A stretch of 64,000 nucleotides of DNA from Vicinamibacterales bacterium. GTDB lineage: Bacteria; Acidobacteriota; Vicinamibacteria; Vicinamibacterales; 2-12-FULL-66-21. Of this stretch, positions 2,982 to 49,665 are shown one piece after another. The stretch is taken from contig DATAFJ010000027.1 in NCBI GenBank assembly GCA_036257535.1, positions 20,636 to 84,635 of the forward strand, read 5' to 3'. The position numbers and the translations under genes were made by a program. Under the pieces are notes generated by a model. It saw only the letters and a program-made list of their open reading frames with translations. It made no database searches and was not told the DNA's origin. How positions within the stretch are numbered: position 1 is the stretch's first letter; the number at the start of each line of letters is the position of its first letter.

Positions 2982-3056
2982 TGCCGAATGTCCAATGCCC
3001 GATGCCCAATGCCCAGACGGAGGCCCGAAGCCCAAGGCCCCAAGCCCCAAGCCCTA
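2979..3056 (-). repeat. Heptanucleotide tandem array, 11 units, filling a stop-to-start spacer
   Basis: Sense (minus) strand: TAGGGCT TGGGGCT TGGGGCC TTGGGCT TCGGGCC TCCGTCT GGGCATT GGGCATC GGGCATT GGACATT CGGCATT G. It runs from stop TAG (3056-3054) to the TTG start (2981-2979). Confidence 0.9.
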
Positions 3057-6000
3057 CGGCTCCGTCCCAGTCCTGAGCGCGCGCACGGGCTGCGGTACTT
3101 CCATCAGAAAGTTCGCCGCCGCGAGCTGCCTGTAGAGATCGCCCGCTTTCGAGATGACCCCGTTGACTTCTCCCACCGCCGTCGTGAGCGCTTCCCGGTT
3201 CTCCGTCACCAGCCGTGTCTGCGTCTCGGTCGGCAGAGAAGTGGAGCCCATGATCTGACTCTTGAGCTGACCGATCCGGCCGCGCACGTTCTGAGTGCCG
3301 CCGAATCCGCCGCCGAACCCGCCACCGCCGCCCACGCCGAGCTTCGGCTTGACCTTCTCGACTTCCTTGTCGAACGACTCGACGGCCGTCTTCATGTCGG
3401 CCGGCGCCTTCGTCGACTTCAGCCTGTCCTTCAGGTCGGTGAGCTGGCGATCGATCGTCGTCAGCGCGGCCGCCGCCTCGTTTGCGTGACGCTGGAGCTC
3501 GTGGAGGGCGAGGGCTGTCTCGAAGTGAACCTTGCGGTCGGCGTCGGTAATCTGAATCTCGGGATCGCCCGAGACGACAACGCGGGAGGTTGCCGCATCG
3601 CGCCCATCGACACTGAGTGCCACTGAATAGGTCCCGGGCAGCACCAGCGGACCGTTCAGCCCGCCTCCGAAAAACCCTCCACCCTGGCCCGGCTGCTGGC
3701 CCGCTAAAGGTGGCAGGGGCTCGACGCGCAGATCCCAGACGACGGTGTTGAGGCCGGCGGCGCCGGCGTTCCGTATCGCAGCGCCCGAGAGCTCGCGTAC
3801 GGTCCGGCCTGTCGCGTCCTTGACGCTCAGCTTCACGTCCTTGGCGGCTTCCCGGAGACGGAACGCAATCGACACGCCTTCGCGCGGGTTTTTCCCGAGG
3901 AACTTGCGATCGCCCTCGAAGTCGCGCATGCGCTCCGCCGATCCGTTGCGCTGCGCGACGGCCTGAGGCTCGAACAGGTAGACCGCCTCGGTCATGGCCT
4001 TCGCGTGCTGCTGGAACGGCGCAAGATCGTCGAGCACCCAGAATGCCCGGCCGTGGGTGGCGAGAATCAGGTCGTTGTCGCGCGGGTGGATGGCGATCTC
4101 GTACACCGGAACGGTGGGCAGGTTTGCTCTCACGCGGGACCACGTGCGGCCGCGATCCGTCGTGACGAACAGGCCGGTCTCGGTGCCGATGTAGAGCACG
4201 TCCGGGTTTTTCGTGTCCTCCGTGAGCGTGCGAACGACCTCGCCCTTCGGCAGGCCGCCGGCGAGCGACCGCCACGAGCCGCCATAGTCGCCACTCGCAA
4301 AAACGTACGTGCCGAAATCGCCGGATCGGTGACCGTCGAAGGTTGCGTGGACCGTTCCATCATCGAAGCGCGACGGAACGACCTTGGAGACGTAGGTGTT
4401 CTTCGGGACTCCAGGAATCTTGTCTGTCACGCGCGTCCAGTTCTTGCCGCCGTCACGCGAGACGGCCACCACGCCGTCATCCGAGCCCGTGTAGTAGAGG
4501 CCGGCGCGCTTCGTTGATTCCGCGAAGCTGACGAGCGTGCTGTACGCCGCGACGCCGTCGTTTCGCGCGAGCCGCGTCTCGCGTCCCCTGACGCCCATCA
4601 ACTCCAGCTCGTCGCGATCGACGGCGTTCGTGAGGTCGGGGCTGATCTCCTGCCACGAGTGGCCGCGGTCCGCCGACTTCAGCAGTTTGTTCGCCGCGAC
4701 GTAGACCGTTTTCGGATCGTGCGGTGACAACGCCATCGGCGTATCCCAGTTCCAGCGATACGCAGGCTGGCCCGCGACCGGCTCCGGACGGATCGACTTG
4801 CGCTCGTTGGTGAGGCGGTCCACCCGATTCATGCGGCCGTCCTGCGATTCCGAATACAGGATTCTGGGATCCATCGGATCGACCAGCGCCACGAAGCCGT
4901 CGCCGCCGCCGATGATGAACCATTCGTCGTTGCCGATGCCGTTGCGGTTGCGGACGGCGCTCGGACCGCACCATGTGTTGTTGTCCTGCAGCCCGCCGCA
5001 GATGGTGTATGGGGACTGCATGTCGTACGACACGTGATAGAACTGCGCCAGCGGCAGGTTCGGGAGATACGTGTACGTGCGGCTGCGATCGTAGGAGATC
5101 GCGACGCCGCCGTCGTTGCCCAGGATCAGATGATCGGAGTTTGCGGGATTGATCCACATCGCGTGATGGTCGACATGGATGCTGCGGGCTCCCTCGTTGT
5201 GGAACGTCTTGCCGCCGTCGTCCGAGACGTGCAGCTGCACGCCCAGCACGTAGATCCGGGCATCCGAGTTCGGGTCGACGCGAATCTGGCTGAAGTACAT
5301 CGGGCGCGGGTTCACGTTGCTCAATTTCTTCCAGCCCGCCCCGCCATCGTCTGAGCGGTACACTCCGCTCTCGGTCGCGTGCTCGATGCGGGCATAGACG
5401 ACGTTCGGATTCGATCGATAGACGTCGAGGCCGATCCGCCCCTTGGGTCCGTCAGGAATTCCCGCCGTCAGCTTCGTCCACGTTCGGCCCGCGTCGGTCG
5501 TCTTGTAGATCGCGCTGCCGTTGCCGCCGCCGTTGAAGCCCCACGTGGCGCGGCGGCGCTGGTACGTGGCCGCGTACAAGACCTTGTTGTTCGACGGATC
5601 CATGACGAGCTCCGTCGCTCCGGTGTCGTCGTCTACGAAAAGACTCCGCGTCCAGGTGAGCCCGCCGTCGATCGTCTTGAACACCCCACGTTCGCCGCCG
5701 GGCGCCCAGAGGCTGCCGAGCGACGCCACGTAGACGACGTCGTGGTCCTGCGGATCCACGATGACGCGGGCGATGTGCCGCGACTCCCGGAGCCCCATGT
5801 TCTTCCAGCCGCGTCCGCCGTCGGTCGACTTGTAGACGCCGTCGCCCCACGACGAGCTCTGGCGGTTGTTGTTCTCGCCGGTTCCCACCCACACGAGATT
5901 CGCGTCGGTCGGAGCGATCGCGACATCGCCAATCGATGACGTGGACTCGTTGTCGAAGACCGGCTCGAAGGTCGTTCCCTGGTTGACCGTCTTCCAGAGC

Positions 6001-6221
6001 CCGCCGGTCGCGGATGCCACGTAGAACACGGATGGGTTGGACTCGAGCACGGCCAGATCGTCGATGCGCCCCGACATCGTGGCGGGGCCGATCTCGCGGA
6101 ATTCCAGTCTGTCGAATGGGCCATCGGCTTTGCTGGGCTCGGCGGACCGGTCGGGCGTCTGGCTGGTGAGCGGCGACGAGAGAATCAACGCGAGCGCAGC
6201 AGTGAGGACTCCACGCGTCAC
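3054..6221 (-). CDS. Secreted BNR/Asp-box repeat protein (sortilin/VPS10-like beta-propeller, glycosyl-hydrolase-like)
   Basis: ORF 3054..6536. Repeated S/T-x-D-x-G-x-T/S-W turns: STDGGRGWKN, TIDGGLTWT, TTDAGRTWT, SDDGGAGWKK, SDDGGKTFHN, SADRGHSWQE, SRDGGKNWTR, TTDRGRTWSR. Signal-like VTRGVLTAALALILSSPLTSQ begins at GTG 6221 preceded by AAGGGGG. The 105 upstream tracked codons look non-coding. Confidence 0.85.
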   Translation of the reverse strand: MTRGVLTAALALILSSPLTSQTPDRSAEPSKADGPFDRLEFREIGPATMSGRIDDLAVLESNPSVFYVASATGGLWKTVNQGTTFEPVFDNESTSSIGDVAIAPTDANLVWVGTGENNNRQSSSWGDGVYKSTDGGRGWKNMGLRESRHIARVIVDPQDHDVVYVASLGSLWAPGGERGVFKTIDGGLTWTRSLFVDDDTGATELVMDPSNNKVLYAATYQRRRATWGFNGGGNGSAIYKTTDAGRTWTKLTAGIPDGPKGRIGLDVYRSNPNVVYARIEHATESGVYRSDDGGAGWKKLSNVNPRPMYFSQIRVDPNSDARIYVLGVQLHVSDDGGKTFHNEGARSIHVDHHAMWINPANSDHLILGNDGGVAISYDRSRTYTYLPNLPLAQFYHVSYDMQSPYTICGGLQDNNTWCGPSAVRNRNGIGNDEWFIIGGGDGFVALVDPMDPRILYSESQDGRMNRVDRLTNERKSIRPEPVAGQPAYRWNWDTPMALSPHDPKTVYVAANKLLKSADRGHSWQEISPDLTNAVDRDELELMGVRGRETRLARNDGVAAYSTLVSFAESTKRAGLYYTGSDDGVVAVSRDGGKNWTRVTDKIPGVPKNTYVSKVVPSRFDDGTVHATFDGHRSGDFGTYVFASGDYGGSWRSLAGGLPKGEVVRTLTEDTKNPDVLYIGTETGLFVTTDRGRTWSRVRANLPTVPVYEIAIHPRDNDLILATHGRAFWVLDDLAPFQQHAKAMTEAVYLFEPQAVAQRNGSAERMRDFEGDRKFLGKNPREGVSIAFRLREAAKDVKLSVKDATGRTVRELSGAAIRNAGAAGLNTVVWDLRVEPLPPLAGQQPGQGGGFFGGGLNGPLVLPGTYSVALSVDGRDAATSRVVVSGDPEIQITDADRKVHFETALALHELQRHANEAAAALTTIDRQLTDLKDRLKSTKAPADMKTAVESFDKEVEKVKPKLGVGGGGGFGGGFGGTQNVRGRIGQLKSQIMGSTSLPTETQTRLVTENREALTTAVGEVNGVISKAGDLYRQLAAANFLMEVPQPVRALRTGTEP

Positions 6222-6420
6222 GGTACCCCCTTTGCTAACGAACAGCCGACCGGCGCGGCGCAGTCCATGGCCGGGCTTCGGCAAGGCGGCGAGAATATCA
6301 CGCCGCTCGCTCCGTCGGCCGCCCTTTGGTGGTAGGGTGGTGCCGGACTTTTGCACCCCGTTTGCGGACCGGTCGCCGAGTCGTCGTGCTGCCGGGGCAG
6401 GATGCAGCGCGGAGGTCCAG

Positions 6421-7149
6421 ATGCTCGCACGCCTCTCGATCGGTGTCGTCCTGATCGCTTGTGCGCTCTCGGCATCGGCGCAACCTGCGCTCACGTCCTC
6501 CTCACTCGTCGAGCGGTTCATCACGCGTGAAGACACGCCCCTCCGGTCCTACACCGCGTTACGCAGGCTGCACGCGGAGAACCTCAGGCTTTCGAAACGG
6601 GCGACGCTCGATGCCTGTACTTTTCTCACTCCTGAGGAAGGGTTTGCGTACCGAATCCTGACGGAGCAGGGCAGTGCCTCGGTGCGAAAGAAGGTCCTGC
6701 GCGCCGCGCTCGAGGCGGAGGTGCGCGCGCTCACGACGGGGGAGGCCGGTTCGGCTGCGCTCGACCCGAAAAACTATGAGTTCGGACCGGCGGAGCCGCT
6801 CGAGGACGGGCTCGCCCGTATCCCGATCAAGGCGCGGCGATCCGAGGCGCTGCTCATCAACGGCGGCTTCGTTCTCGACGAGAACGCGAATCTGCTTCGC
6901 GTGGAAGGACAGCTCTTCAAGAAGCCGTCCTTCTGGGTCAGCCGCGCCGAGGTGGTCCGCGAGTACGCCCGCATCGGCGGCGTCCGTGTGCCGGTTCGTG
7001 TCTCGTCCACCGCCTGGTTGAAGCTGGCGGGCCGCTCCACGTTCGAGATGACCTACGAGTACGATTCCATCAACGGCATCAGCCTGCGGTCGAGCGCCGA
7101 AGTCAGCGACGCCTGCAGCGCCACCGTTTCGGTTGCCGGCACGCCGTAG
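6421..7149 (+). CDS. Secreted hypothetical protein
   Basis: Frame of ORF 6037..7149. ATG 6421 gives the signal peptide MLARLSIGVVLIACALSASAQ. No family recognised. The last 97 nt overlap the convergent gene, so the C-terminus is uncertain. Confidence 0.55.
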   Translation: MLARLSIGVVLIACALSASAQPALTSSSLVERFITREDTPLRSYTALRRLHAENLRLSKRATLDACTFLTPEEGFAYRILTEQGSASVRKKVLRAALEAEVRALTTGEAGSAALDPKNYEFGPAEPLEDGLARIPIKARRSEALLINGGFVLDENANLLRVEGQLFKKPSFWVSRAEVVREYARIGGVRVPVRVSSTAWLKLAGRSTFEMTYEYDSINGISLRSSAEVSDACSATVSVAGTP

Positions 7150-38317: not shown

Positions 38318-38401
38318 GCCGGGGTGGCGGAACTGGCAGACGCACAGGACTTAAAATCCTGGGGCCGACAGGCCGTGTGGGTTCGATCCCCACCCCCGGC
38401 A
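38318..38401 (+). tRNA. tRNA-Leu (anticodon UAA)
   Basis: Manual cloverleaf. Acceptor GCCGGGG/CCCCGGC with discriminator A. D-stem GCG/CGC. Anticodon stem CAGGA/TCCTG with loop CTTAAAA (anticodon TAA). Long variable arm GGCC..GGCC. T-arm GTGGG TTCGATC CCCAC. No encoded CCA. Confidence 0.93.
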
Positions 38402-38412
38402 CGACGTCTCCG

Positions 38413-38814
38413 ATGCCGATCCATTCACACGACGAGATCGCCGCGGCCACCATGAAATGGGCCGAAAGGCTGGCGCAGAACGACCCGGACACGATCGTCC
38501 TGCTCTATGCCAGGGATGCCGTTCTCTGGGGTACGCTTGCGCCGACGCTGGCCGCCGATCGAGCAGCGGTTCGCGAGTATTTCGTGACCGCCTTCAGGCT
38601 CTTGCCCAGGCTCAAGGTGGACTTAGGCGAGCACCTGATCCACGTGTACGGCAGCACCGCTGTCAACACGGGCTACTACACGTTCACGTACTTCAAGGAC
38701 GGTGAGATCAGAACCTTGCCGGCGCGATACAGCTTTACCTTCGTCAAGGAAGGTGAAAACTGGATGATCGTGGCCCATCATTCATCGGCGATGCCCGCCC
38801 TTTCCCCATCCTGA
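38413..38814 (+). CDS. SnoaL/DUF4440-like (NTF2-fold) protein
   Basis: Frame of ORF 38377..38814, ATG 38413. DEIAAATMKWAERLAQNDPDTIVLLYARDAVLWGT...GENWMIVAHHSS matches the DUF4440/CaMKII-association-domain pattern. Confidence 0.75.
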   Translation: MPIHSHDEIAAATMKWAERLAQNDPDTIVLLYARDAVLWGTLAPTLAADRAAVREYFVTAFRLLPRLKVDLGEHLIHVYGSTAVNTGYYTFTYFKDGEIRTLPARYSFTFVKEGENWMIVAHHSSAMPALSPS

Positions 38815-38859
38815 CCCCGTCTATTGGTCAGGTGCCCTCCGTCCGACACCTCATATGGC

Positions 38860-39519
38860 ATGTTGTGGTTCTACCGCCGCGCGGAGGAGCAGATCGCCTG
38901 CGAAATCCGCATCGCTTTCGACGGGCGGGCCTACGAGCTGCACATCCTGCAGCCGGACGGGACCCGCACCGTCGAGCGCTACGCCGACGTCACGGCCGCG
39001 CTCAGGCGCGAGCACGAGCTCGAACGGACCTGGAAAGCGCAGGGCTGGCGCGAGCTCAACGAGATGACATCTGATTCGCTCGCGAAACGAGCAGAAACGC
39101 CCGACGAATCGCCCACGCCCCGATCGACCCGGCACCCCGGCGCCGTTGTGCTGCTCGTCGAAGACGACCCGAATACGCGTACCGGTTATACCGAATGCCT
39201 CGCCTCTCAGGGCTTCGTCGTCGAGGCGGCGGCGAACGGCACCGACGCGCTGGCTGCGGCAAACCGCCGGCGGCCGGATGCGGTGGTGGCCGACATCTAC
39301 CTTCCAGATTTCGACGGGCTCGAGGTGACGCGCTGCCTGAGGGAAAACCCGGAGACGCAGCGGGCGCCGGTCATCGGCCTGACAGGCCAGTGGGATATCG
39401 AGATCACGAAGCGTGCCCACGCCGCCGGGATGATCGCGCTTCTCCTCAAGCCGGTTGCGCCCGCGCACCTGCTTGCCGAGATCGATCACGCGCTCGACGA
39501 ACTGTCGGCGCGGCCGTAG
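38860..39519 (+). CDS. Response regulator receiver with an unrecognised ~75-aa N-terminal domain
   Basis: ATG 38860: MLWFYRRAEEQIACEIRIAFDGRAYELHILQPDGTRTVERYADVTAAL..., a linker, then the receiver (VVLLVEDD, AVVADIYLPDFDGLEV, VIGLTG, LLKPVAPAHLL). Confidence 0.8.
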   Translation: MLWFYRRAEEQIACEIRIAFDGRAYELHILQPDGTRTVERYADVTAALRREHELERTWKAQGWRELNEMTSDSLAKRAETPDESPTPRSTRHPGAVVLLVEDDPNTRTGYTECLASQGFVVEAAANGTDALAAANRRRPDAVVADIYLPDFDGLEVTRCLRENPETQRAPVIGLTGQWDIEITKRAHAAGMIALLLKPVAPAHLLAEIDHALDELSARP

Positions 39520-39915
39520 CTAGCTCGTGTCGCTCAGCCCGCAGTTGCGCAGGATCGCTTCAATCAGAGCGTCCGACGCGAACGGCTTCGTCAGGCAGTC
39601 CGCGACGCCGAGCTGTTTCGCCACTGCGCGCGCGCCCGGCATCCCCGAAACGCAGACGATTGGAACGGGTGGGAACTCGGGGTCCGCCTGCGCGGCGTGC
39701 ACGAATCCGGCGCCATCCAGGAAAGGCATCGCGAGGTCGAGCACGACGACGCAGGGACGCTGGCGGCGGAGCTGCTCGAGGGCTTCGAGTCCGTTTTCGG
39801 CCGTGACCACGCGAAAGCCTGCGCTCGTCAGGGTCGCGACGAGTAGACCGCGCATGTCGGCGTCATCTTCAACGACGAGGACTGGGCCGGAGACGGTCCG
39901 TACAGACGGCTTCAT
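39520..39915 (-). CDS. Stand-alone CheY-like response regulator receiver
   Basis: VLVVEDDADMR, VVVLDLAMPFLDGAGF, IVCVSG, LTKPFASDALI. ATG 39915 (tracked GTG 39918). Its stop CTA directly abuts the TAG of the convergent receiver gene. Confidence 0.85.
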   Translation of the reverse strand: MKPSVRTVSGPVLVVEDDADMRGLLVATLTSAGFRVVTAENGLEALEQLRRQRPCVVVLDLAMPFLDGAGFVHAAQADPEFPPVPIVCVSGMPGARAVAKQLGVADCLTKPFASDALIEAILRNCGLSDTS

Positions 39916-40031
39916 CACGCGCGCGAACGCCCGACGCGAACACCGGACATGCCCTTGCGCGGATTTTATATCCGTACGGTGTCGAACCTATCTCAACCAT
40001 GCGAACCGCTTTGACGGGTCACGTGTGACCG

Positions 40032-40960: not shown

Positions 40961-41737
40961 TCAACGCTGCTTCGTCTTGTATCCCGCGGGAACCTCGAAC
41001 AGCGAATCGGCAATCGCATCCGACGACACCGAGACCACCTCCGTCAGCATCGTCATGCCGCCCATCTTGTTCATCATCGCGGCCATCGGTCCCGCCCCTT
41101 CGAACTTCATCGTGAGCTCGCTCGAGTAAGGAAGGCCCCTGGCCGCCATCTCCTGATAGAGCTTCGCCATGCCCTTGGCCTGGCCCGGCTGCGCCTTCAC
41201 CTGGCGCGGGTCTCCGAAGAAGAGGCCCTTCTCGGCGGCAGTCCTGTAGAACGCCTGGTAGTCGGCGGCGCCGGGAGCGTCCTTCACGAGGCAGGCGGGG
41301 CCGGCCATGGTGACGGTCAGGCCGTCGCTTCCCATCTGCATCGGAACGCTGATTGACATGTGGTGGACGGTGCAGCTCTTCCCGGCGATCTGCCGCGTCT
41401 CGCTGGTCGGCGTGACCGTCGCGGAGATGTCGCCGGACGAGATCTTGGCCATGTCGGCGGCGAGTTTGGTCATGTCGATGATCTCGGCTTCCTTCTTCCG
41501 ATGATCCACGGAGATCATCCGCTGGGCGTCGGCGTCGATGATCGTCGACAGCTCGTTGTCGCCCCGCTTCTGATCGATCCGCATCTTCGTGCCCTTGATG
41601 TACTGCACGCTGTCGCCCGATGCCATGCTGGCGATGCCGCCCTTGCCGGTCACCTTCTGATTCACCGTGACGTCCGCAGCCGCAGGCGCCGCGAGGACAG
41701 CTGTCAGGGCGAGCGCGGTTCCGAGTCGAACAATCAT
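40961..41737 (-). CDS. Secreted DUF4412-like protein
   Basis: Frame of ORF 40961..42061. ATG 41737 after GGAGGAAC gives the signal MIVRLGTALALTAVLAAPAAA. Met-rich C-terminal region (GPMAAMMNKMGGMTML). The upstream 108 tracked codons look non-coding. Confidence 0.65.
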   Translation of the reverse strand: MIVRLGTALALTAVLAAPAAADVTVNQKVTGKGGIASMASGDSVQYIKGTKMRIDQKRGDNELSTIIDADAQRMISVDHRKKEAEIIDMTKLAADMAKISSGDISATVTPTSETRQIAGKSCTVHHMSISVPMQMGSDGLTVTMAGPACLVKDAPGAADYQAFYRTAAEKGLFFGDPRQVKAQPGQAKGMAKLYQEMAARGLPYSSELTMKFEGAGPMAAMMNKMGGMTMLTEVVSVSSDAIADSLFEVPAGYKTKQR

Positions 41738-41789
41738 GCGGGTTCCTCCAAGGGCTGGGGAAGCAGACAAGCTATTGTAAGGTACGGCC

Positions 41790-43133
41790 ATGAGACCGTC
41801 GCTCGCCGCCGCCGCGCTGTGCCTCGTTGTGCACGCTTCTGCATCCGCCGGAGCAGAGGCCGAGTGGCCATCGTTTCGCGGGCCCGCGGCATCCGGCATC
41901 GCGGACGGGCAACAGATTCCAGACACGTGGGACGTGGTCTCCGGCAAGAACGTCAGATGGAGAACCGCGATTCCCGGCCTCGCGCACTCGAGTCCCGTCG
42001 TCGCCGGCGATCGCGTGTTCGTGACGACGGCTGTAAGCAGCCGCGGCGGCGCGACGTTCAAGCCGGGCCTCTACGGCGACGGAACCGCGTCAGAGGATCA
42101 GTCCTCGCACCAGTGGAAAGTGATCGCGCTCGATCGCAGGAATGGCAGAGTGCTCTGGGAGCGCGTGGCCTTCGAGGGCGTCCCGCGCGAGAAGCGGCAC
42201 ATCAAGGCGACCTACGCGAACCAGACGCCAGCCACCGACGGACGCTACGTCGTCGCGTTCTTCGGATCGCAGGGGATTTTTGCGTTCGATGTCGATGGAA
42301 GGCCGATGTGGCAGCGCGACCTCGGCCGTTTGAACGCGGGCGCCTACGACATTCCGAGCTACGAGTGGGGAAATGCCAGCTCGCCGATTATTTACAGGGA
42401 CCGCGTGATCGTCCAGTGCGACACGCATGAGACGTCCTTCCTCATGGCGCTCGATCTGAAGACCGGGCGAACCTTGTGGAAGACCGAGCGCAAGGAACTG
42501 CCGTCGTGGGGCACGCCCACCGTCTATACGGCGGGAGGCCGGCCCGAGATCGTCACCAACGCGTCGAACTTCGTGCGCGGTTACGACCCCGAAACGGGCC
42601 GCGAGCTCTGGCGGCTCGGCGGGAGCTCGAAGATTACGGCGCCGACGCCCATCTTCACGAAGGATCTCGTCATCGTCGCGAGCGGCCGAGCGCCGGAGCG
42701 GCCGATTTTCGCGATCCGTCCCGGGGCGGACGGAGACCTGACGCTCGGCGAAGGGCAGACGTCGAGCGGCGCCGTCGTGTGGAGCAAGCGTGGACGCGGG
42801 TCCTACATGCCGACGCCAATCGCCTATCAGGACCATCTCTACGTCGTCGCCAACCAGGGATTGCTCGATTGCTACGAGCTGGCGACCGGCCGAGAGGTGT
42901 ACCGCGAGCGGATTCCGCACCGCGGAAGCGGATTCAGCGCGTCGCCGGTCGCGTCCGACGGCCGGCTGTTCCTGCCGGGCGAGGATGGTGACATCTTCGT
43001 CGTTCGCGCCGGCCCCGCGTTCGGTGTTATTGCGACGAACTCGATGGGGGAGCTCGTCATGGCGACCCCGGCCATTGCGCACCGCACGCTGTTCGTCCGT
43101 ACAGAGAGGCACCTAGTCGCGATCTCGCAGTGA
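41790..43133 (+). CDS. Secreted PQQ-like (BamB-type) beta-propeller repeat protein
   Basis: Signal [28 protein letters not shown]. Repeated blade pattern ...G(R/K).(L/V)W ([32 protein letters not shown]), with SSPV/SSPI strands. Confidence 0.85.
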
Positions 43134-43184
43134 TTTCTCCTAGCGTCCGGCCGCAGCCGGGCCTATAATGCGCGCTCTTCCAGC

Positions 43185-46130
43185 ATGCGCGCAGCGGTCG
43201 GAGCTCTCGTTTCGCTGCTCGTCGTCGTGTGTCCTGCCGACGCCCAGTACTTCGGCCGGAACAAGGTCGAGTACGACCACTTCGACTTCCGCGTCGCACG
43301 CACCACGCACTTCGACATCTACTTCGCTGAAAAGGACGCCGCCGCCGCGGCCGACGCAGCCGTCCTCGCGGAGCGTTGGCACGATCGCCTCGTTGGGGCG
43401 TTCGGCCACCGCCTGACGCGGCGTCAACCGCTGGTCCTCTACGGCAGTCATCCCGAGTTCGCGCAGACGAACATCGTCGGCGGGTTCGTCGGCGAGGGCA
43501 CGGGCGGTGTCACCGAAGGTCTGCGCCGCCGGATCGTCATGCCGTTCGGGTACAGCCTCGCGGAAACGGATCACGTGCTCGGACATGAGATCGTTCACGC
43601 GTTCCAGTACGACATGGCGTCGACCTACGGCTCGTCCATGTTCGTGCCGCTCTGGTTCGCGGAAGGCATGGCCGAGTATCTGTCGGTCGGCCCTACGGCG
43701 CCGCAGACGACGTTGCTGATGCGCGACGCGGTGGCCTCGGGCAGGCTGCCGTCGATCGAGTCGCTCGATCATGGACGAATCTCGCCGTACCGAAGCGGCC
43801 ACGCGTTCTGGACGTGGATTGCTGAGCGGTTTGGCGGGGCAGTGATCGCGGATGTGCTGCGGCAGAAGGGACGGGCCAGCGCGCTCCGGCGGCTTGAGAA
43901 CTCGACCGGACTGAAGCGCGAGGCCCTCGACCGCGAGTGGCACGAATGGTTGAAGGAAGAGTTCCCCGCAGAGAGCGCGCACGACGTCGCACCGGGCGGC
44001 GTTCACGAGACATTCCAACCGGTCGTCACGCGCCGCAATGGTGGACGTGTGAACGTCGCGCCGGCGCTGAGCCCGAACGGCCGCCGCCTCGTGTTTCTCT
44101 CCGAGCGCGACAGATTGTCAGTCGACCTGTTTCTCGCCGACGCCGCGACCGGCAGGATTCTCCGAAAACTGCTGACGACGGCGGCGCGACCGGAGATCGA
44201 GAGCCTGCAGTCGCTGCGATCCGCTGGAGCGTGGTCGGCAGACGGACGCCGGTTCGCCTTTGCCGTCATCAGGAATGGCCGCCCCGCGCTCACGATCTTT
44301 GACGTGGGCGATGACGACCGGTCCAGGGTGGCCCGGCGCATCGACCTGGCGTCGCTCGGCGAGATCGCCGGGCCGACCTGGTCGCCCGACAGCGCCTCGA
44401 TTGCGTTCACCGGGCTTGCGGACGGCGTCACCGACTTGTACATCTACGAGCTCGGCGCGGATCGCCTGCGCCGTCTGACAACCGACGCTCATGCCGATCT
44501 GCATCCGTCGTGGTCGCCCGACGGGGCGCGGCTCGCGTTTGCCACCGATCGCTTCACGAGCGATCGCGCGACCCTGAGCGCCGGCCGGCTCGAGCTGGCG
44601 ATACTGGACATCGCGGCCGGGACTCTGAGCCGCGTGCCGGGTGACGGCGCGTCGAATCGGTACTCACCGAACTGGATGCCGGATGGCCGGACGATCGTGT
44701 TTGCGACCGACAGGAACGCGGGTCAGATCGGTCGCCTCGATCTCGCATCCAATGAGATACGGATCGTCGGAGAGCTTCCAGGCTCGGTCTCTGGACTGAC
44801 GCTGGAGAGTCCGTCGGTTGCCGTCGCCCGCGACGCCGGAGCGATTGCCGTGAGCGTCTATCGTCGCGGCGCGTTCGAGATCCACGTCGCCGGCGAATGC
44901 ACGTCCTCGACGTCAGAGCCACTGCCGACCGACGAGCCCTCGCAGTCGCCGGCACCCAATGCACCCAATGCACCCAATGCACTGGAAGCATCAGCCTACC
45001 GTCCTCGCCTGCAACTGGACGGCATCGTGCAGCCGTATCTTGCGACCGGCGGGAGCTCGTTCGGCAGCTTCGTACGGGGAGGTGCCTCGCTTTCGTTCGG
45101 CGACCTGCTCGGTGGCGAGCGCCTCGGTATCGCGGTGCAGGCGGGAACGCGCCGTTCCGACCTCGCGCTGCAGCTTCAATATCTGAATCGCGACTCGCGC
45201 TGGAACTGGGGCGTCGTCACCGAAGTCGTGCCGTATGCGCGCGGACGCTCGAGGGCGCTGGACGTCGAAGACGGGTCAGTGGTCGTGCGCGAGTCCGCGC
45301 GTGAGCTGCAGTTTCACACCCGGCTGGCTGGATTGCTCTCGTACCCGTTCAGCCGCAGCCGGCGGGTCGAGTTCAGCGCGGGGATTCGGCACATCCTCTA
45401 CGAGGAGCAACTCCGGCGGCGTGAGTACTCGGCGGCGACGGGACGGCTCGTGGGCGAGCTCAACGAGAGCAGCCGCGGCGCCGAACCGGCGGGGTTCTTC
45501 GAAGGGTCCGTCGCGTTGGTGTCGGACCGCGCGATGTACGGCCCCGTCGGTCCGATAGCGGGCGAGCGGTGGCGAGTCGAAGCTTCACCGGCCGCGGGAG
45601 AGCTTCAGTTCACGGGCGTTCTCGCCGACTACCGGCGGTACCTGATGCCCGTCAAGCCCTACACAATCGCCGCGCGGGTGATGCATTCCGCGCGGTACGG
45701 CCGCGACGCCGACGACCCGCGGCTCGTGCCGCTCTTCGCCGGCTACCGTCACCTGATTCGCGGCTACGACGCGGGCGCCTTCGGCGGCTGCGATCGGCTT
45801 GGCGACTGCGATCGCTTCGACGCGCTCTTCGGCAGCCGTCTGATGGTGGGGAACGTCGAGCTGCGCGTTCCCATCGCCGGCGCGATCGCGCGCGAGCTGA
45901 GATACGGTCCCATCCCCGCGGAAGCGTTCGCGTTTTTCGACGCCGGCATAGCCTGGACGAGCGAGGACATCCCGGCGTTTGCCGGCGGCACTCGCCGGCT
46001 CATGCGCAGCGCCGGTGCGGGCGTCCGCGTCAACGCTTTTGGGATGATCGTGGAAGTCGGCGCGGCGCGTCCGTTCGATCGCGCCCGCAACGGCTGGAAC
46101 GTCGTCTTTAATCTCCGCCCCAGCTTCTGA
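43185..46130 (+). CDS. Fusion protein: HExxH peptidase-like N-domain + TolB-type (PD40) beta-propeller + C-terminal Omp85/D15-like beta-barrel
   Basis: Signal ...LLVVVCPADAQ. VLGHEIVHAFQYDM. Five PD40-like blades (SPNGRRLVFLSERD, WSADGRRFAF, WSPDSASIAFTG, WSPDGARLAFATDR, WMPDGRTIVFATDR). C-terminus FFDAGIAW...GAGVRVNAFGMIVEVGAARPFD...NVVFNLRPSF ends in an aromatic residue, typical of outer-membrane barrels. Confidence 0.8.
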   Translation: MRAAVGALVSLLVVVCPADAQYFGRNKVEYDHFDFRVARTTHFDIYFAEKDAAAAADAAVLAERWHDRLVGAFGHRLTRRQPLVLYGSHPEFAQTNIVGGFVGEGTGGVTEGLRRRIVMPFGYSLAETDHVLGHEIVHAFQYDMASTYGSSMFVPLWFAEGMAEYLSVGPTAPQTTLLMRDAVASGRLPSIESLDHGRISPYRSGHAFWTWIAERFGGAVIADVLRQKGRASALRRLENSTGLKREALDREWHEWLKEEFPAESAHDVAPGGVHETFQPVVTRRNGGRVNVAPALSPNGRRLVFLSERDRLSVDLFLADAATGRILRKLLTTAARPEIESLQSLRSAGAWSADGRRFAFAVIRNGRPALTIFDVGDDDRSRVARRIDLASLGEIAGPTWSPDSASIAFTGLADGVTDLYIYELGADRLRRLTTDAHADLHPSWSPDGARLAFATDRFTSDRATLSAGRLELAILDIAAGTLSRVPGDGASNRYSPNWMPDGRTIVFATDRNAGQIGRLDLASNEIRIVGELPGSVSGLTLESPSVAVARDAGAIAVSVYRRGAFEIHVAGECTSSTSEPLPTDEPSQSPAPNAPNAPNALEASAYRPRLQLDGIVQPYLATGGSSFGSFVRGGASLSFGDLLGGERLGIAVQAGTRRSDLALQLQYLNRDSRWNWGVVTEVVPYARGRSRALDVEDGSVVVRESARELQFHTRLAGLLSYPFSRSRRVEFSAGIRHILYEEQLRRREYSAATGRLVGELNESSRGAEPAGFFEGSVALVSDRAMYGPVGPIAGERWRVEASPAAGELQFTGVLADYRRYLMPVKPYTIAARVMHSARYGRDADDPRLVPLFAGYRHLIRGYDAGAFGGCDRLGDCDRFDALFGSRLMVGNVELRVPIAGAIARELRYGPIPAEAFAFFDAGIAWTSEDIPAFAGGTRRLMRSAGAGVRVNAFGMIVEVGAARPFDRARNGWNVVFNLRPSF
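44952..44982 (+). repeat. In-frame 9-mer tandem (GCACCCAAT x3.4) encoding (APN)3 in a linker
   Basis: gcacccaat gcacccaat gcacccaat gcac lies within the fusion-protein CDS. It shares the CCAATGC core with the heptamers at 2979-3013. Confidence 0.85.
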
Positions 46131-46771: not shown

Positions 46772-47215
46772 ATGCTGTTCACGTGGTGGCAGTGGCTCGC
46801 GCTCGGGCTTGTCCTGGTTCTGCTCGAGATGGCGGCTTCGGGCGGCTTCTACGTGATCTTTTTTGGCATCGCGGCGCTGACGATCGGCGCGCTGCACCTC
46901 CTGAATCTCGCGGGGCCCGTTTGGCTTCAGCTCCTTATGTTCTCGGTCCTCTCCGTCGGATCGCTGCTGCTCTTCCGCAATCCAATGATTCGCTGGCTGA
47001 AGCTCGATCAGGGCTCGCCCGACGTGGACACGCTGGCGGGCGAGATTGCGCTGCCGCTCGAGGACATCGGACCGGGGGAAGTGGGGCGGGTCGAGCTGCG
47101 TGGCACGATCTGGCAGGCCCGCAACGCCACGGCTGCTCCGATCGTTCGCGGGCGCCGCGCCGTCGTTCGACGCGTCGATCGGCTGATGCTCTTCATAGAG
47201 CCTGAAGGAGTGTAA
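46772..47215 (+). CDS. nfeD: NfeD-family membrane protein
   Basis: Two or three N-terminal TM helices plus a C-terminal OB-like domain (GEVGRVELRGTIWQARN). It lies immediately upstream of an SPFH gene, the canonical pairing. Confidence 0.85.
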   Translation: MLFTWWQWLALGLVLVLLEMAASGGFYVIFFGIAALTIGALHLLNLAGPVWLQLLMFSVLSVGSLLLFRNPMIRWLKLDQGSPDVDTLAGEIALPLEDIGPGEVGRVELRGTIWQARNATAAPIVRGRRAVVRRVDRLMLFIEPEGV

Positions 47216-47217
47216 CT

Positions 47218-48141
47218 GTGACGGGTGGCCTAGTCCTCCTGCTGATCCTGGCGATGTTCGTACTCATCGTCATAGCCAAGACAGCAATCGTGGTTCCACA
47301 ACAGAGTGCATACGTCGTCGAGCGGCTCGGCCGGTATTCGGGCACCCTCGGCGCCGGCTTTCACATCCTTCTGCCGTTCGTGGACGTCATCCGCTACCGC
47401 CATTCGCTCAAGGAGCAGGCGATCGACATCCCGGCGGAGGTCTGCATCACGCGCGACAACGTGCAGGTCGGCGTGGACGGCATCCTGTACCTGAAGGTCC
47501 TCAATCCCGAACGCGCGTCCTACGGCATCTCCGACTATGTGTTCGCGATCAGCCAGCTCGCGCAGACCACGCTGAGAAGCGAGATCGGAAAGATCGATCT
47601 CGACCGGACGTTCGAGGAGAGGAGCAACATCAACGCCCAGCTCGTCGCGGAGCTGGACAAGGCGTCAGAGGCCTGGGGCGTGAAGGTTCTGCGCTACGAG
47701 ATCAAGAACATCACGCCGCCGCACGACGTGCTGGCGGCGATGGAAAAGCAGATGCGCGCCGAGCGCGAGAAGCGCGCCGTCATCCTCACGTCCGAAGGCA
47801 CGCGCGACGCCGCGATCAACACCGCCGAAGGCGACAAGCAGATGGTCATCAAGGCGTCCGAGGCGCGCAAGCAGCAGCAGATTAACGAAGCCCAGGGTCA
47901 GGCTGAGGCGATTCTCGCGGTTGCGTCCGCAACCGCCGACGGGCTCCGCAAGGTCGCGGACGCGCTCCGACAGCCGGGCGGGACCGAGGCCATGCAGCTG
48001 CGCGTCGCCGAGGAGTATCTCCAGCAGTTCGGCCAGCTCGCCAAGGAAACGAACACGCTGATCCTGCCGGCCAACGTCTCCGACGTCGCGTCCATGGTCG
48101 CGCTCGCGACGCAGGTCGTGAAGGGAACGAAGACGGGATAG
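47218..48141 (+). CDS. SPFH/band-7 (stomatin/prohibitin-like) protein
   Basis: N-terminal TM, then VVPQQSAYVVERLGRYSGTLGAGFHILLPFVD..., ITRDNVQV, and a C-terminal coiled coil. GTG 47218. Confidence 0.9.
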   Translation: MTGGLVLLLILAMFVLIVIAKTAIVVPQQSAYVVERLGRYSGTLGAGFHILLPFVDVIRYRHSLKEQAIDIPAEVCITRDNVQVGVDGILYLKVLNPERASYGISDYVFAISQLAQTTLRSEIGKIDLDRTFEERSNINAQLVAELDKASEAWGVKVLRYEIKNITPPHDVLAAMEKQMRAEREKRAVILTSEGTRDAAINTAEGDKQMVIKASEARKQQQINEAQGQAEAILAVASATADGLRKVADALRQPGGTEAMQLRVAEEYLQQFGQLAKETNTLILPANVSDVASMVALATQVVKGTKTG

Positions 48142-48321: not shown

Positions 48322-48717
48322 ATGTCAATCTCGGAAATCCTGACGAAGCGCACTTCCGAGTTCGCTCTGGCAATCATCCGCTTCTGCGCCGCGCTGCCGC
48401 CAACCTGGGAGGCGAGGCGCATCAGCGGCCAACCGTTCGACGCCGGTACCTCAGTCGGGGCGAACTATCGGGCCACGTGCAGAGCACGTTCGAAGCGGGA
48501 ATTCACTTCAAAAATAGGCCTCGTGATTGAGGAGGCCGACGAATCCGAATACTGGCTCATGCTGCTCAAGCGCGCGGGGATCGCGAAAGGTGTCGAGCTG
48601 GATCGCCTCTTCGACGAAGCGGGTCAGTTGGTCGCCGTTTTCACACGCTCGCAGAGGACGGCAATCAGCAAGCTCGAGAAGGAAACTCTGGCTCGAAAAC
48701 GAAAGTCACAATGCTGA
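48322..48717 (+). CDS. Four-helix-bundle protein of the 23S rRNA intervening-sequence / Avd-like family
   Basis: TSEFALAIIRFCAALPPTWEARRISGQPFDAGTSVGANYRATCRARSKREFTSKIGLVIEEADESEYWLMLL matches the family pattern (..G.Q..RS..SI.AN..EG......EF...L.IA.GS..E..YWL.L). Visibly lower GC than its neighbours. Confidence 0.9.
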   Translation: MSISEILTKRTSEFALAIIRFCAALPPTWEARRISGQPFDAGTSVGANYRATCRARSKREFTSKIGLVIEEADESEYWLMLLKRAGIAKGVELDRLFDEAGQLVAVFTRSQRTAISKLEKETLARKRKSQC

Positions 48718-48801
48718 TTGCGGGAAGCTGAATGCTGATTGTTAGTGACCGGCGTTGCTTGACCACTCAGCATTCCACACTCAGCAATCTACACTGACTC
48801 A
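48715..48801. repeat. Heptamer elements downstream of the IVS-like gene (direct partial copy plus inverted right arm)
   Basis: 48727-48745 gctGAATGCTGATTGttag repeats 12 nt of the left arm. 48766-48789 CTCAGCATTCCACACTCAGCAATC is the reverse complement of the left arm 48158-48180 (18 of the first 21 positions match by hand). The minus strand after the ypfJ-like TGA (48801-48799) reads GTCAGTGTAGATTGCTGAGTGTGGAATGCTGAG. Confidence 0.85.
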
Positions 48802-49665
48802 GGTCCCGAACGTATTACAGGAATCCGGGTTTCCGCTCTGGAGGCCCCGCCGGAACCATTCCACGCGCTGCGCCGACGACCCGTGCGTGAACGCGTCCGG
48901 GACGACGCGGCCGCCTGACATCTGTTGAAGCCGATCGTCGCCGATGGCGGCGGCGGCACGGAGCCCTTCCTCGACATCGCCCTCTTCAAGCATGACGCGG
49001 CGTCCGACCTCGCCTCCGGATCTGGACGCGAAGCTGCCCCAAACGCCCGCAAAGCAGTCCGCCTGCAGCTCCATGCGGACCGACAGCTCGTTCTGCTGCG
49101 CCGGCCGGCGCTGCTGCAGCTGGCGCACCTGGCTTTCAATCCCGAGGACGTTCTGGACGTGGTGGCCGACCTCGTGCGCGATGACGTATGCCTGCGCGAA
49201 GTCGCCGGGCGCGCCGAACCGCCGATGGAGCTCGTCGAAGAAGCTGAGATCGAGGTAAACCTGTCGATCGCCAGGGCAATAGAACGGCCCGGTGGCCGCT
49301 TGCGCGAACCCGCACGCCGACTCGACTGCGTCGCGGAAGAGTCTGACCTTCGTCCGCTGGTACCGTCCCGGCATGATCTGGGTCCAGGTGTTCTGGAGGT
49401 CGCCCATGACGGCGTCCACCATGTCGACAAGCTCTTCCTCCTGGGGCGTCGATGTCGCGGGTCCGGCATCGCCCGTCGTCCCGGTGGATGGGCCGGGCAC
49501 ACCGCCGCCCCCGAGAAGCGACAGAAAGTCGGCGCCCGTGAACCAGCTGAGCGCGAGGAGAAGCAGCAGCCCGCCGATACCGATCGGCATTCCGCGGCCT
49601 CCGAAGCCCGCGCGCTGTCCTCTCAGGTCATCGATGTTCTCGCGATTGCCTCGGGTCCACCGCAT
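48799..49665 (-). CDS. ypfJ: YpfJ-family neutral zinc metallopeptidase
   Basis: N-terminal TM. GPFYCPGDRQVYLDLSFF, and YVIAHEVGHHVQNVLG (HExxH). Confidence 0.9.
   Translation of the reverse strand: MRWTRGNRENIDDLRGQRAGFGGRGMPIGIGGLLLLLALSWFTGADFLSLLGGGGVPGPSTGTTGDAGPATSTPQEEELVDMVDAVMGDLQNTWTQIMPGRYQRTKVRLFRDAVESACGFAQAATGPFYCPGDRQVYLDLSFFDELHRRFGAPGDFAQAYVIAHEVGHHVQNVLGIESQVRQLQQRRPAQQNELSVRMELQADCFAGVWGSFASRSGGEVGRRVMLEEGDVEEGLRAAAAIGDDRLQQMSGGRVVPDAFTHGSSAQRVEWFRRGLQSGNPDSCNTFGT

What the first reader, a model, noticed from the sequence alone, without database searches (positions are those of the whole stretch)
43185..46130. Single 981-aa polypeptide combining an HExxH peptidase-like domain, a TolB-type propeller and an Omp85-like barrel
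The order from the sequence is as follows. First a signal peptide, then a ~230-aa domain with VLGHEIVHAFQYDM. Next come five PD40/TolB-like blades (the SPDG/SADG..(L/I)(V/A)F pattern). Then a low-complexity linker with (APN)3. Last is a ~330-aa C-terminal region with alternating hydrophobic strands ending ...NVVFNLRPSF, typical of an outer-membrane beta-barrel of the D15/Omp85 type (FFDAGIAW, GAGVRVN). This would be a surface-anchored protease or scaffold that carries its own barrel. It is flanked by a PQQ/BamB-like propeller and a DUF4412 protein, so the neighbourhood looks dedicated to outer-membrane biogenesis or quality control.
Basis: partly seen in the sequence, partly recalled or inferred. 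Interest (0 to 1): 0.55.

Follow-up and report, generated by a model that had tools for sequence, protein, structure and literature searches.

The report
Peptidase-propeller-Omp85 outer-membrane fusion protein
This gene encodes a real, widespread but never-studied outer-membrane protein that joins a zinc protease domain and a TolB-like propeller to a BamA-type membrane barrel; the family was catalogued by bioinformatics in 2014, so this is an ordinary new member of a known family whose function is still unknown.

Summary
The N-domain has a gluzincin zinc-peptidase fold, with H134/E135/H138/E160 unchanged in 118/118 homologues. The middle domain is a six-bladed TolB/PD40 propeller. After a disordered Pro-rich linker comes an Omp85 barrel carrying the family's RGY and FxDxG motifs and a terminal Phe. 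There is no POTRA domain. The architecture is not new. It is the 'WD40-Omp85' subfamily of Heinz & Lithgow (2014), whose supplement already lists aminopeptidase-like hits. A 2024 paper describes the subfamily as having 'WD40 and peptidase domains', and another calls it not well characterized. The exact protein is in NCBI (HEX2442681.1, Vicinamibacterales MAG). Relatives occur in at least 579 species genomes (Acidobacteriota, Gemmatimonadota, Bacteroidota/Ignavibacteria and others). The 'dedicated neighbourhood' claim fails: the PQQ and DUF4412 neighbours are kept only in 2 close relatives out of 84 loci, and the PQQ protein is not BamB. Most likely this is an outer-membrane-anchored zinc peptidase facing the periplasm, with the propeller recruiting or gating substrate. 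Surface exposure is not excluded but is less likely, because the enzymatic domain of PlpD, the one precedent, was shown to be periplasmic.

The parts
43185..43244 (+). Sec signal peptide, aa 1-20 (MRAAVGALVSLLVVVCPADA), predicted cleavage ADA|Q
   Evidence: Direct reading. A18 and A20 are conserved in 102 and 113 of 118 homologues, followed by invariant Q21. All sampled homologues have a hydrophobic N-terminus ending A-x-A|Q.
43245..43274 (+). Conserved mature N-terminal motif QYFGRNKVEY (aa 21-30), predicted unstructured; role unknown
   Evidence: Q21, F23, G24 and N26 are kept in 117/118, K27 and V28 in 116/118, Y30 in 118/118. pLDDT is below 50-55 in both models.
43281..43979 (+). Gluzincin-type (clan MA(E)-like) zinc metallopeptidase domain, aa ~33-265
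   Evidence: pLDDT is 92-98 over most of the domain. All Foldseek PDB top hits are M1 aminopeptidases, M9 collagenase peptidase domains or M61 (prob 1.00, TMq 0.5-0.6). The profile hits M9 collagenase at E=0.0015 with the motifs aligned. Pfam BSP matches 24/24, Peptidase_MA_2 19/24 and M9 18/24 members.
43584..43598 (+). HEIVH zinc-binding and catalytic motif (H134, E135, H138)
   Evidence: 118/118 conserved. It aligns on the HEYVH of M9 collagenases.
43662..43664 (+). E160 in WFAEGMAEY, the probable third zinc ligand (22 residues after H138)
   Evidence: E160 and G161 are 118/118 conserved. The motif aligns on WWSEGVAEY of M9 collagenases. Its assignment as a ligand is inferred from gluzincin families.
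43785..43799 (+). PYRSG motif (P201, Y202, G205 invariant); Y202 is a candidate transition-state-stabilising Tyr
   Evidence: P201, Y202 and G205 are 118/118 conserved. The motif aligns on YRWG of M9 collagenases. The catalytic role is inferred.
44016..44891 (+). Six-bladed TolB/PD40-type beta-propeller, aa ~278-569
   Evidence: PD40 E=5.6e-27. TolB structures score 1e-27 by sequence and 1e-11 by Foldseek. There are 24 DSSP strands, with strand 278-281 available to close the last blade.
44892..44987 (+). Disordered Pro/Ala-rich linker, aa 570-601, containing (APN)3 at aa 590-598; no POTRA domain
   Evidence: pLDDT is 47-68. The alignment has its lowest conservation here (0.34). Length and sequence vary among homologues, 41-90 residues. 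POTRA (PF07244) is found in 0/40 members.
44988..46127 (+). Omp85-type transmembrane beta-barrel, aa 602-981, ending in the C-terminal beta-signal ...RPSF
   Evidence: Foldseek: BamA barrel 7nre_A E=2.6e-8, prob 1.00, 441 columns; 6fsu_B TMt 0.55. Pfam Omp85 scores 23.3 bits here (cut-off 24) and matches 36/40 homologues, best 1.7e-11. There are 17 DSSP strand segments. The terminal residue is F in 117/118.
45699..45836 (+). Long loop equivalent to Omp85 loop L6 (aa 839-884), with the IRGY motif (R859-G860-Y861) and an invariant Cys pair C869/C875
   Evidence: R859 is kept in 112/118, G860 in 118/118, Y861 in 115/118, and C869 and C875 in 118/118. E. coli BamA has VRGF at residue 661. The model shows a 46-residue loop with two short helices.
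45933..45947 (+). FFDAG, the Omp85 (F/Y)xDxG motif on the strand after L6 (aa 917-921)
   Evidence: F917 is kept in 117/118, D919 and G921 in 118/118. E. coli BamA has FWDMG at 738-742 in the context SFFWDMGTVW, against AFAFFDAGIAW here.

Best explanation
The gene encodes a single-chain, outer-membrane-anchored zinc peptidase whose enzymatic part faces the periplasm. After Sec export and signal-peptide cleavage, the C-terminal Omp85-type barrel is inserted into the outer membrane, presumably by BAM through its terminal-Phe beta-signal, and acts mainly as the anchor. A flexible Pro-rich tether of 30-60 residues holds a rigid unit under the membrane. That unit is a six-bladed TolB-like propeller packed against a gluzincin catalytic domain (HExxH + Glu). 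The propeller recruits or gates substrates, as propellers do in TolB (ligand capture) and in the propeller-gated peptidases (S9 oligopeptidases, Tricorn), and presents unfolded chains or peptides to the zinc site. The likely job is processing or disposal of envelope proteins or peptides close to the outer membrane. That would make it a one-polypeptide version of the anchor + adaptor + protease arrangement seen in BepA-BAM or NlpI-Prc. Shown here: the three folds, the intact active-site residues, the Omp85 motifs, the absence of POTRA, the disordered linker, the lack of a conserved partner gene and the wide distribution. Inferred: periplasmic orientation, actual catalysis, the role of the propeller and the substrates.
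For: The full-length AlphaFold model is confident (pLDDT 89.2, pTM 0.88). The N-domain matches only gluzincin peptidases. H134/E135/H138/E160/Y202 are invariant in 118 sequences whose mean column identity is 45%, which argues for selection on catalysis. The propeller is TolB-like. The barrel is BamA-like, with RGY and FxDxG motifs and a C-terminal Phe. The linker is unstructured and varies in length and sequence, as expected of a tether and not of a conserved pore-filling segment. Residues 88-105 are confidently modelled only in the full-length context (pLDDT 82-95, below 50 in the isolated domain), which suggests peptidase and propeller form one unit. This N-domain subtype occurs almost only at the N-terminus of ~1000-aa proteins. 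For orientation, every Omp85 N-terminal domain studied so far is periplasmic, and PlpD's enzymatic domain was shown to be periplasmic (PMC11116518). No conserved neighbour was found, so the protein is self-contained.
Against: There is no experimental datum for any family member. Orientation is inferred, and I could not inspect model coordinates to see which barrel face the propeller sits on. The Pfam peptidase hits are below gathering thresholds (19-23 bits against 32.4), so the domain belongs to no curated peptidase family and its specificity is unknown. The strictly conserved Omp85 functional motifs and the invariant L6 Cys pair would be more than a passive anchor needs, so the barrel may do more. 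The difference in pLDDT between the two models may partly reflect alignment depth (118 against 24 sequences).
Confidence: 0.55

Rival explanations
1. Cell-surface protease displayed by its own barrel (type V-like self-export). The linker threads through the Omp85 barrel, and the peptidase-propeller unit works outside the cell, for example digesting environmental proteins for nutrition in soil and sediment heterotrophs.
For: The order passenger-linker-barrel resembles autotransporters. The linker (41-90 residues) is long enough to cross the membrane. The family is found in lineages known for degrading polymers. Heinz & Lithgow raised export as an option for enzyme-bearing Omp85 proteins.
Against: PlpD, the prototype for this idea, keeps its enzymatic domain in the periplasm. 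The linker has no conserved or confidently modelled pore segment. The barrel keeps the L6 RGY/FxDxG lock that plugs BamA-type barrels (the plug role is from established BamA structures). A roughly 550-residue unit containing a folded propeller is an unusual passenger.
Confidence: 0.15
2. Outer-membrane protein assembly or translocation factor: a BamA/TamA-like insertase in which the propeller replaces POTRA and BamB as the substrate or partner platform (the 'BamA-BamB fusion' idea of Heinz & Lithgow), with the peptidase domain secondary.
For: The barrel has the Omp85 fold and both hallmark motifs are strictly conserved. NCBI names the protein 'BamA/TamA family outer membrane protein'. The proposal appears in PMC4104836.
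Against: There is no POTRA domain (0/40). The propeller is the six-bladed PD40/TolB type, not the eight-bladed PQQ/BamB type. An invariant catalytic zinc site is unexplained by a pure assembly role. No client or partner gene is conserved next to it.
Confidence: 0.15
3. Non-catalytic scaffold or tether: a TolB-like binding module fixed to the outer membrane (for example binding a Pal-like lipoprotein or peptidoglycan-associated partner), with the HExxH domain used only for binding.
For: The propeller's closest relatives are TolB proteins. Pseudo-peptidases with a retained fold are known in other families (general knowledge).
Against: All zinc ligands, the catalytic Glu and the candidate Tyr are invariant across 118 sequences at ~45% identity, which is atypical of pseudo-enzymes. 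The TolB N-terminal domain is absent: TIGR02800 scores 104.8 against a cut-off of 343, and the match covers propeller positions only.
Confidence: 0.05

Closest known systems
'WD40-Omp85' (WD40-like) subfamily of the Omp85/TpsB superfamily (Heinz & Lithgow 2014, PMC4104836)
   Same: Same architecture: PD40 repeats N-terminal to a PF01103 barrel, without POTRA (Table S2). Their Table S3 records Phyre hits to the BamA/TamA barrel, to TolB and to M1/M9 'aminopeptidase' templates at ~99% confidence. That matches my Foldseek results. PMC11358297 summarises the subfamily as having 'divergent WD40 and peptidase domains'.
   Different: Nothing structural. I did not compare this protein directly with their listed UniProt entries. 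Their main text discusses only the propeller (as a BamA-BamB-like fusion) and never the peptidase site, whose invariance is shown here. No function is known for the subfamily.
BamA / TamA (canonical Omp85 insertases)
   Same: 16-stranded-type barrel fold. The L6 (V/I)RG(F/Y) motif and the (F/Y)xDxG motif are present, as is a pair of cysteines in the L6 region and a C-terminal aromatic residue.
   Different: There are no POTRA domains, and the periplasmic part is an enzyme plus a propeller. Sequence similarity is too low for HMMER to reach solved BamA/TamA chains. No bamD, tamB or other partner lies nearby.
PlpD / FplA (patatin-like Omp85, formerly 'type Vd secretion')
   Same: An enzymatic domain is fused N-terminally to an Omp85 barrel, and the enzymatic domain is now shown to stay in the periplasm (PMC11116518).
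   Different: PlpD has a POTRA domain and a lipase; this protein has a propeller, no POTRA and a zinc peptidase. The dimerisation and lid dynamics of PlpD are untested here.
TolB (Tol-Pal system)
   Same: Six-bladed PD40 propeller, the best sequence and structure match.
   Different: It lacks TolB's N-terminal alpha/beta domain and scores far below the TolB equivalog cut-off (104.8 against 343). It is anchored in the membrane rather than soluble, and there is no tol-pal gene context.
Gluzincin peptidases: M9 collagenase peptidase domain, M1 aminopeptidases, Pfam Peptidase_MA_2/BSP
   Same: Thermolysin-like catalytic fold. HExxH plus a downstream Glu in a W-x-x-E-G context and a YRxG motif align with M9.
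   Different: All hits are below the Pfam gathering thresholds. There is no M1 GxMEN motif (GGVTE at 107-111 instead). It lacks the M1 N- and C-terminal domains and the M9 activator and collagen-binding domains.
BepA at BAM, NlpI-Prc, and propeller-gated peptidases (S9 oligopeptidases, Tricorn)
   Same: This is a functional analogy only: a periplasmic protease held at the outer membrane, and a propeller controlling access to a peptidase. S9 peptidases and Tricorn appear among the propeller hits. Precomputed Pfam marks Tricorn_N and Tricorn_2nd on the propeller.
   Different: The catalytic classes differ (BepA is M48, Prc S41, POP S9, Tricorn a serine protease). Those systems use separate subunits or soluble enzymes. 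No evidence here links this protein to BAM.

Membership tests
Omp85 superfamily | C-terminal 16-stranded transmembrane beta-barrel | tested here: met
   The AlphaFold barrel spans 602-981 with pLDDT mostly above 85. Foldseek matches BamA barrels (7nre_A E=2.6e-8, prob 1.00; 6fsu_B TMt 0.55). DSSP gives 17 strand segments, so one is probably a split strand.
Omp85 superfamily | Loop L6 (V/I)RG(F/Y) motif | tested here: met
   I858-R859-G860-Y861 lie in a 46-residue loop. R is kept in 112/118, G in 118/118 and Y in 115/118. BamA has VRGF at residue 661.
Omp85 superfamily | (F/Y)xDxG motif on the strand after L6 | tested here: met
   F917-F-D919-A-G921 are kept in 117, 118 and 118 of 118. BamA has FWDMG at 738-742.
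Omp85 superfamily | At least one POTRA domain before the barrel | tested here: not met
   PF07244 was found in none of 40 members at E<=0.01. Only a disordered 32-residue linker lies between propeller and barrel. Heinz & Lithgow accept non-POTRA subfamilies.
Omp85 superfamily | Pfam PF01103 at or above the gathering score | tested here: inconclusive
   This protein scores 23.3 bits against a cut-off of 24. 36/40 homologues match at E<=0.01, best 1.7e-11.
WD40-Omp85 subfamily (Heinz & Lithgow 2014) | PD40/WD40-like propeller N-terminal to the Omp85 barrel, no POTRA | tested here: met
   compared with their Table S2 architectures (PF01103 + PF07676 x n).
WD40-Omp85 subfamily (Heinz & Lithgow 2014) | Aminopeptidase-like (gluzincin) region at the N-terminus (their Table S3) | tested here: met
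   My Foldseek top hits include 1z1w/3q7j (F3 factor), 4ar1 (ColH) and 4kx7 (APA). These are the same or sister templates to their c1z5hB, c4ar1A and c4kxdA.
WD40-Omp85 subfamily (Heinz & Lithgow 2014) | Sequence clustering with their listed UniProt members | not tested
   Their sequences could not be fetched with these tools. Membership rests on identical architecture.
BamA/TamA orthologues (the NCBI product name) | POTRA arm (5 in BamA, 3 in TamA) and partner proteins (BamD, TamB) | tested here: not met
   There is no POTRA domain and no conserved neighbour. The product name is a superfamily-level label only.
Gluzincin (clan MA(E)) metallopeptidases | HExxH plus a Glu ligand about 18-30 residues downstream | tested here: met
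   H134-E-x-x-H138 and E160 are 118/118 conserved and align to the M9 motifs.
Gluzincin (clan MA(E)) metallopeptidases | Thermolysin-like catalytic fold | tested here: met
Gluzincin (clan MA(E)) metallopeptidases | Zinc binding and peptidase activity | not testable with these tools
   This needs biochemistry.
Pfam Peptidase_MA_2 (PF13485) | Score at or above the gathering threshold (32.4 bits) | tested here: not met
   The protein scores 19.3 bits full length and 23.1 for the isolated domain. 19/24 homologues match at E<=0.1, best 2e-9. It is related but not a curated member.
M1 aminopeptidases | GxMEN exopeptidase motif upstream of HExxH, plus flanking N- and C-terminal domains | tested here: not met
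   The sequence has no GxMEN. GGVTE at 107-111 lies 27 residues before H134. Pfam Peptidase_M1 matches 1/24 members, at E=0.06.
TolB | N-terminal alpha/beta domain plus a six-bladed propeller; equivalog score | tested here: not met
   TIGR02800 scores 104.8 against a cut-off of 343.15, and the match covers only profile positions 197-362, the propeller.
BamB (claimed resemblance of the upstream neighbour, 41790-43133) | BamB equivalog score; lipoprotein signal | tested here: not met
   TIGR03300 scores 60.5 against a cut-off of 285.2, and PRK11138 scores 43.2 against 423. The N-terminus AAALC lacks a canonical lipobox (direct reading).

The most novel reading that the evidence does not exclude
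The protein is a self-contained outer-membrane quality-control machine. Its Omp85 barrel would engage stalled or misfolded beta-barrel clients at its seam, as BamA does, and hand them to its own propeller-gated zinc peptidase. That would be a single-chain BamA+BepA equivalent. The strictly conserved, disordered mature N-terminus (QYFGRNKVxY) might serve as a TonB-box or TolA-box-like handle that couples it to an inner-membrane energising or regulatory partner. Nothing found here excludes this, and nothing tests it.
Probability: 0.12. Interest if true: 0.7.

Novelty: new member of a known kind. Interest (0 to 1): 0.33.

Why it matters
Non-POTRA Omp85 proteins are an acknowledged blind spot: the 2024 PlpD study calls the WD40-like subfamily 'not well characterized'. 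This family is large, with at least 579 species genomes and 1,138 clusters at 50% identity, and it is concentrated in Acidobacteriota, Gemmatimonadota and the Bacteroidota/Ignavibacteria group, where envelope biology is barely studied. Showing that the zinc site is invariant moves the working hypothesis from 'BamA-BamB-like platform' to 'membrane-anchored protease' and gives concrete mutants to test. For the genome scan itself, the finding is a correct domain call on a catalogued family and not a discovery.

Full report
**1. Observation**

The ORF 43185..46130(+) exists as described: 981 aa, ATG start, TGA stop. All quoted strings are present:
- VLGHEIVHAFQYDM at aa 131-144
- (APN)3 at aa 590-598
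- FFDAG at aa 917-921
- GAGVRVN at aa 944-950
- C-terminus NVVFNLRPSF

The N-terminus is a Sec-type signal peptide ending ADA|Q21.

It is a real gene. A search of 5.8 billion proteins returned thousands of hits, and the top 120 are full length (~1000 aa) at 39-91% identity. The exact sequence is in NCBI as HEX2442681.1, 'BamA/TamA family outer membrane protein [Vicinamibacterales bacterium]'. The window is therefore from an acidobacterial (Vicinamibacterales) MAG with 63-69% GC.

**2. N-terminal domain**

On this one protein, Pfam gives only sub-threshold hits: Peptidase_MA_2 19.3 bits against a cut-off of 32.4, plus BSP and M9. Across homologues the signal is consistent: BSP 24/24, Peptidase_MA_2 19/24 (best 2e-9) and M9 18/24.

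A profile of the domain hits Vibrio-type M9 collagenases in the PDB (E=0.0015). The family's HEIVH lies on their HEYVH, WFxEGMAEY on WWSEGVAEY, and PYRxG on YRWG.

An AlphaFold model of the isolated domain (pLDDT 81.6) was searched against the PDB with Foldseek. The top 29 hits are all gluzincin peptidases, and nearly all of the 50 listed are:
- M1 aminopeptidases (IRAP, ERAP1/2, F3 factor, APN)
- M9 collagenase peptidase domains (ColG, ColH, ColT)
- M61

These hits have prob 1.00 and TMq 0.41-0.60.

In a 118-sequence alignment with 45% mean column identity, H134, E135, H138, E160, P201, Y202 and G205 are unchanged in 118/118. The domain is a probable active zinc peptidase of the HExxH+E type.

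It is not an M1 enzyme. There is no GxMEN motif (GGVTE stands at 107-111), and the M1 flanking domains are absent.

**3. Propeller**

PD40 scores E=5.6e-27. TolB structures match at 1e-27 by sequence and 1e-11 by structure.

The full-length model (pLDDT 89.2, pTM 0.88) shows 24 strands between aa 278 and 569. That is six blades, as in TolB, not five.

The TolB equivalog score is far below its cut-off (104.8 against 343), and the match covers only the propeller. The protein is TolB-like in that one domain only.

**4. Linker and barrel**

Residues 570-601 are disordered (pLDDT 47-68). They are the least conserved part of the alignment and vary from 41 to 90 residues among homologues. No POTRA domain is detected in any of 40 members.

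From aa 602 the model is a large antiparallel barrel. Foldseek matches BamA barrels: 7nre_A with E=2.6e-8, prob 1.00 and 441 columns, and 6fsu_B with TMt 0.55.

Pfam Omp85 scores 23.3 bits against a cut-off of 24 in this protein, but it matches 36/40 homologues, best 1.7e-11.

- BamA has VRGF at residue 661 and SFFWDMGTVW at 738.
- The family has IRGY at 858-861, in a 46-residue loop, and AFAFFDAGIAW at 913-923.
- R859, G860, Y861, F917, D919 and G921 are kept in 112-118 of 118 sequences.
- The last residue is Phe in 117/118.

The second refutation condition, 'C-terminus is not a barrel', is also not met. HMMER and hhalign could not link the barrel to solved BamA by sequence. Barrel membership therefore rests on fold, Pfam and motifs.

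**5. Surroundings**

The upstream gene (41790-43133) is a PQQ_2 propeller protein, and the one before it is DUF4412. The PQQ protein is not BamB: TIGR03300 scores 60.5 against a cut-off of 285.

The neighbours are conserved only in close relatives (P0001 at 91% and P0008 at 72% identity). They are absent at 45-49% identity.

Two wider tests agree:
- In 84 loci, homologues of PQQ, DUF4412 and every other window neighbour occur only in those two.
- Unbiased clustering of 720 flanking ORFs from 82 diverse loci finds nothing shared by more than 7 loci.

The gene is a stand-alone unit, and the 'dedicated neighbourhood' reading is rejected.

**6. Distribution**

At least 579 species-representative genomes encode a relative. 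The best 80 all cover essentially the whole protein at 35-46% identity. They come from Acidobacteriota (Vicinamibacterales, Aminicenantes, Terriglobia), Gemmatimonadota, Bacteroidota/Ignavibacteria, Eisenbacteria and a few others.

The N-domain profile finds 1,138 clusters (at 50% identity) with E<=1e-30 among 1.84 billion representatives. Complete hits are ~1000 aa, with the domain beginning at residue ~20-50. This peptidase subtype is therefore essentially confined to this architecture.

**7. What is known**

Heinz & Lithgow (2014, PMC4104836) split the Omp85/TpsB superfamily into ten subfamilies. [quoted passage not shown]

Their Table S3 has a 'best aminopeptidase hit' column for this cluster (c1z5hB, c4kxdA, c4ar1A and others, ~99%). 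All three domains were therefore seen in 2014, although the main text never mentions a peptidase.

PMC11358297 (2024) summarises the subfamily as having 'divergent WD40 and peptidase domains'. PMC11116518 (2024) lists the WD40-like subfamily among those 'not well characterized'. Six full-text searches found no experimental work on any member.

Their 'Metallo' subfamily is PF00149 and is unrelated.

**8. Mechanism**

The best-supported reading (confidence about 0.55) is an outer-membrane-anchored zinc peptidase facing the periplasm:
- The barrel is the anchor and is inserted through its C-terminal beta-signal.
- The Pro-rich linker is a flexible tether.
- The propeller and peptidase form one unit in which the propeller captures or gates substrate.

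Orientation is inferred from three points:
- Established Omp85 topology places N-terminal domains in the periplasm.
- The linker lacks any conserved or structured pore segment.
- PlpD's enzymatic domain, the only precedent for export, was shown to be periplasmic.

The idea that peptidase and propeller act as one unit has weak support. Residues 88-105 are confidently modelled only in the full-length context, but the two models also differ in alignment depth.

The rivals are:
- surface display by self-export (0.15)
- a BamA-like assembly factor with a propeller platform (0.15)
- a non-catalytic TolB-like tether (0.05)

The strict conservation of the Omp85 motifs and of a Cys pair in L6 leaves room for the barrel to do more than anchor. 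That is the basis of the 'novel case': a single-chain BamA+BepA-like quality-control device.

**9. Unexplained**

The mature N-terminus QYFGRNKVxY is as conserved as the active site (116-118 of 118). Both models nevertheless predict it as unstructured. From general knowledge this resembles a TonB box or TolB's TolA-binding epitope. It could also be a latency peptide. None of this was tested.

**10. Verdict**

This is a new member of a known, bioinformatically defined and functionally uncharacterised subfamily. Interest is modest (0.33). It is a correct call on a catalogued architecture, and its main added value is the evidence that the zinc site is under strict selection across the family.

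Noticed in passing
window 43245-43274 (aa 21-30 of the protein): The mature N-terminus QYFGRNKVEY, directly after the signal-peptide cleavage site, is conserved in 116-118 of 118 homologues, yet both AlphaFold models predict it as unstructured. This resembles a short linear docking motif (TonB-box or TolA-box-like) or a latency peptide.
   Followed up: partly
window 45789-45809 (C869 and C875): An invariant Cys-x5-Cys pair sits in the L6-equivalent loop just after the RGY motif. E. coli BamA also has two cysteines in its L6 region (ECATQDGAKDLC). A conserved L6 disulfide is plausible but untested.
   Followed up: partly
window 43134-43184: The 51-nt gap between the PQQ gene and the target contains a perfect TATAAT (43164-43169) ending 15 nt before the ATG, with no obvious Shine-Dalgarno sequence. 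The consensus scan reported no terminator-like site on the + strand in the gap. The gene may have its own promoter with a very short leader, or be co-transcribed with the PQQ gene in this lineage.
   Followed up: no
window 43503-43517 (aa 107-111, GGVTE): G108 and T110 are invariant and E111 is kept in 109/118. The motif lies 27 residues upstream of HExxH, about where M1 enzymes carry GxMEN and M9 enzymes a double-Gly/edge-strand element (from memory). It may define substrate positioning in this peptidase subtype.
   Followed up: no
window 40961-42061 (-): The DUF4412 ORF as listed (366 aa) overlaps the start of the PQQ gene by about 270 nt. Its homologues are called at 258-270 aa. The true start is probably the internal Met of MIVRLGTALALT..., near 41740, which is followed by a signal-peptide-like stretch.
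   Followed up: no
window 46772-48141 (+): An NfeD (PF01957) and SPFH/Band 7 (PF01145 + Band_7_C) gene pair lies downstream, the classic membrane-scaffold/NfeD operon. It is conserved only in the close relatives.
   Followed up: no
window 48322-49665: A 23S rRNA-intervening-sequence-protein family gene (PF05635, four-helix bundle) lies next to a PF04228 'putative neutral zinc metallopeptidase' (E=6.5e-101) on the opposite strand.
   Followed up: no
window 38318-39918: tRNA-Leu(TAA) at 38318-38402 is followed by a SnoaL-like/DUF4440 protein and two response-regulator receiver proteins on opposite strands, with no kinase among the ORFs scanned with Pfam.
   Followed up: no
L001 (ENA ERZ25039541 contig_86251), whole locus: In this 91%-identical relative, several genes are called in fragments (Band_7 in pieces, Zn_peptidase split in two), and the PQQ gene is not called although tblastn finds it at 91% identity. 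This points to a frameshift-rich (long-read-type) assembly and not to real pseudogenes.
   Followed up: no
window 3054-6536 (-): A 1160-aa Sortilin/VPS10-BNR repeat protein. A similar 1198-aa protein lies about 5.6 kb upstream of the homologue in L003. This is probably coincidence.
   Followed up: no
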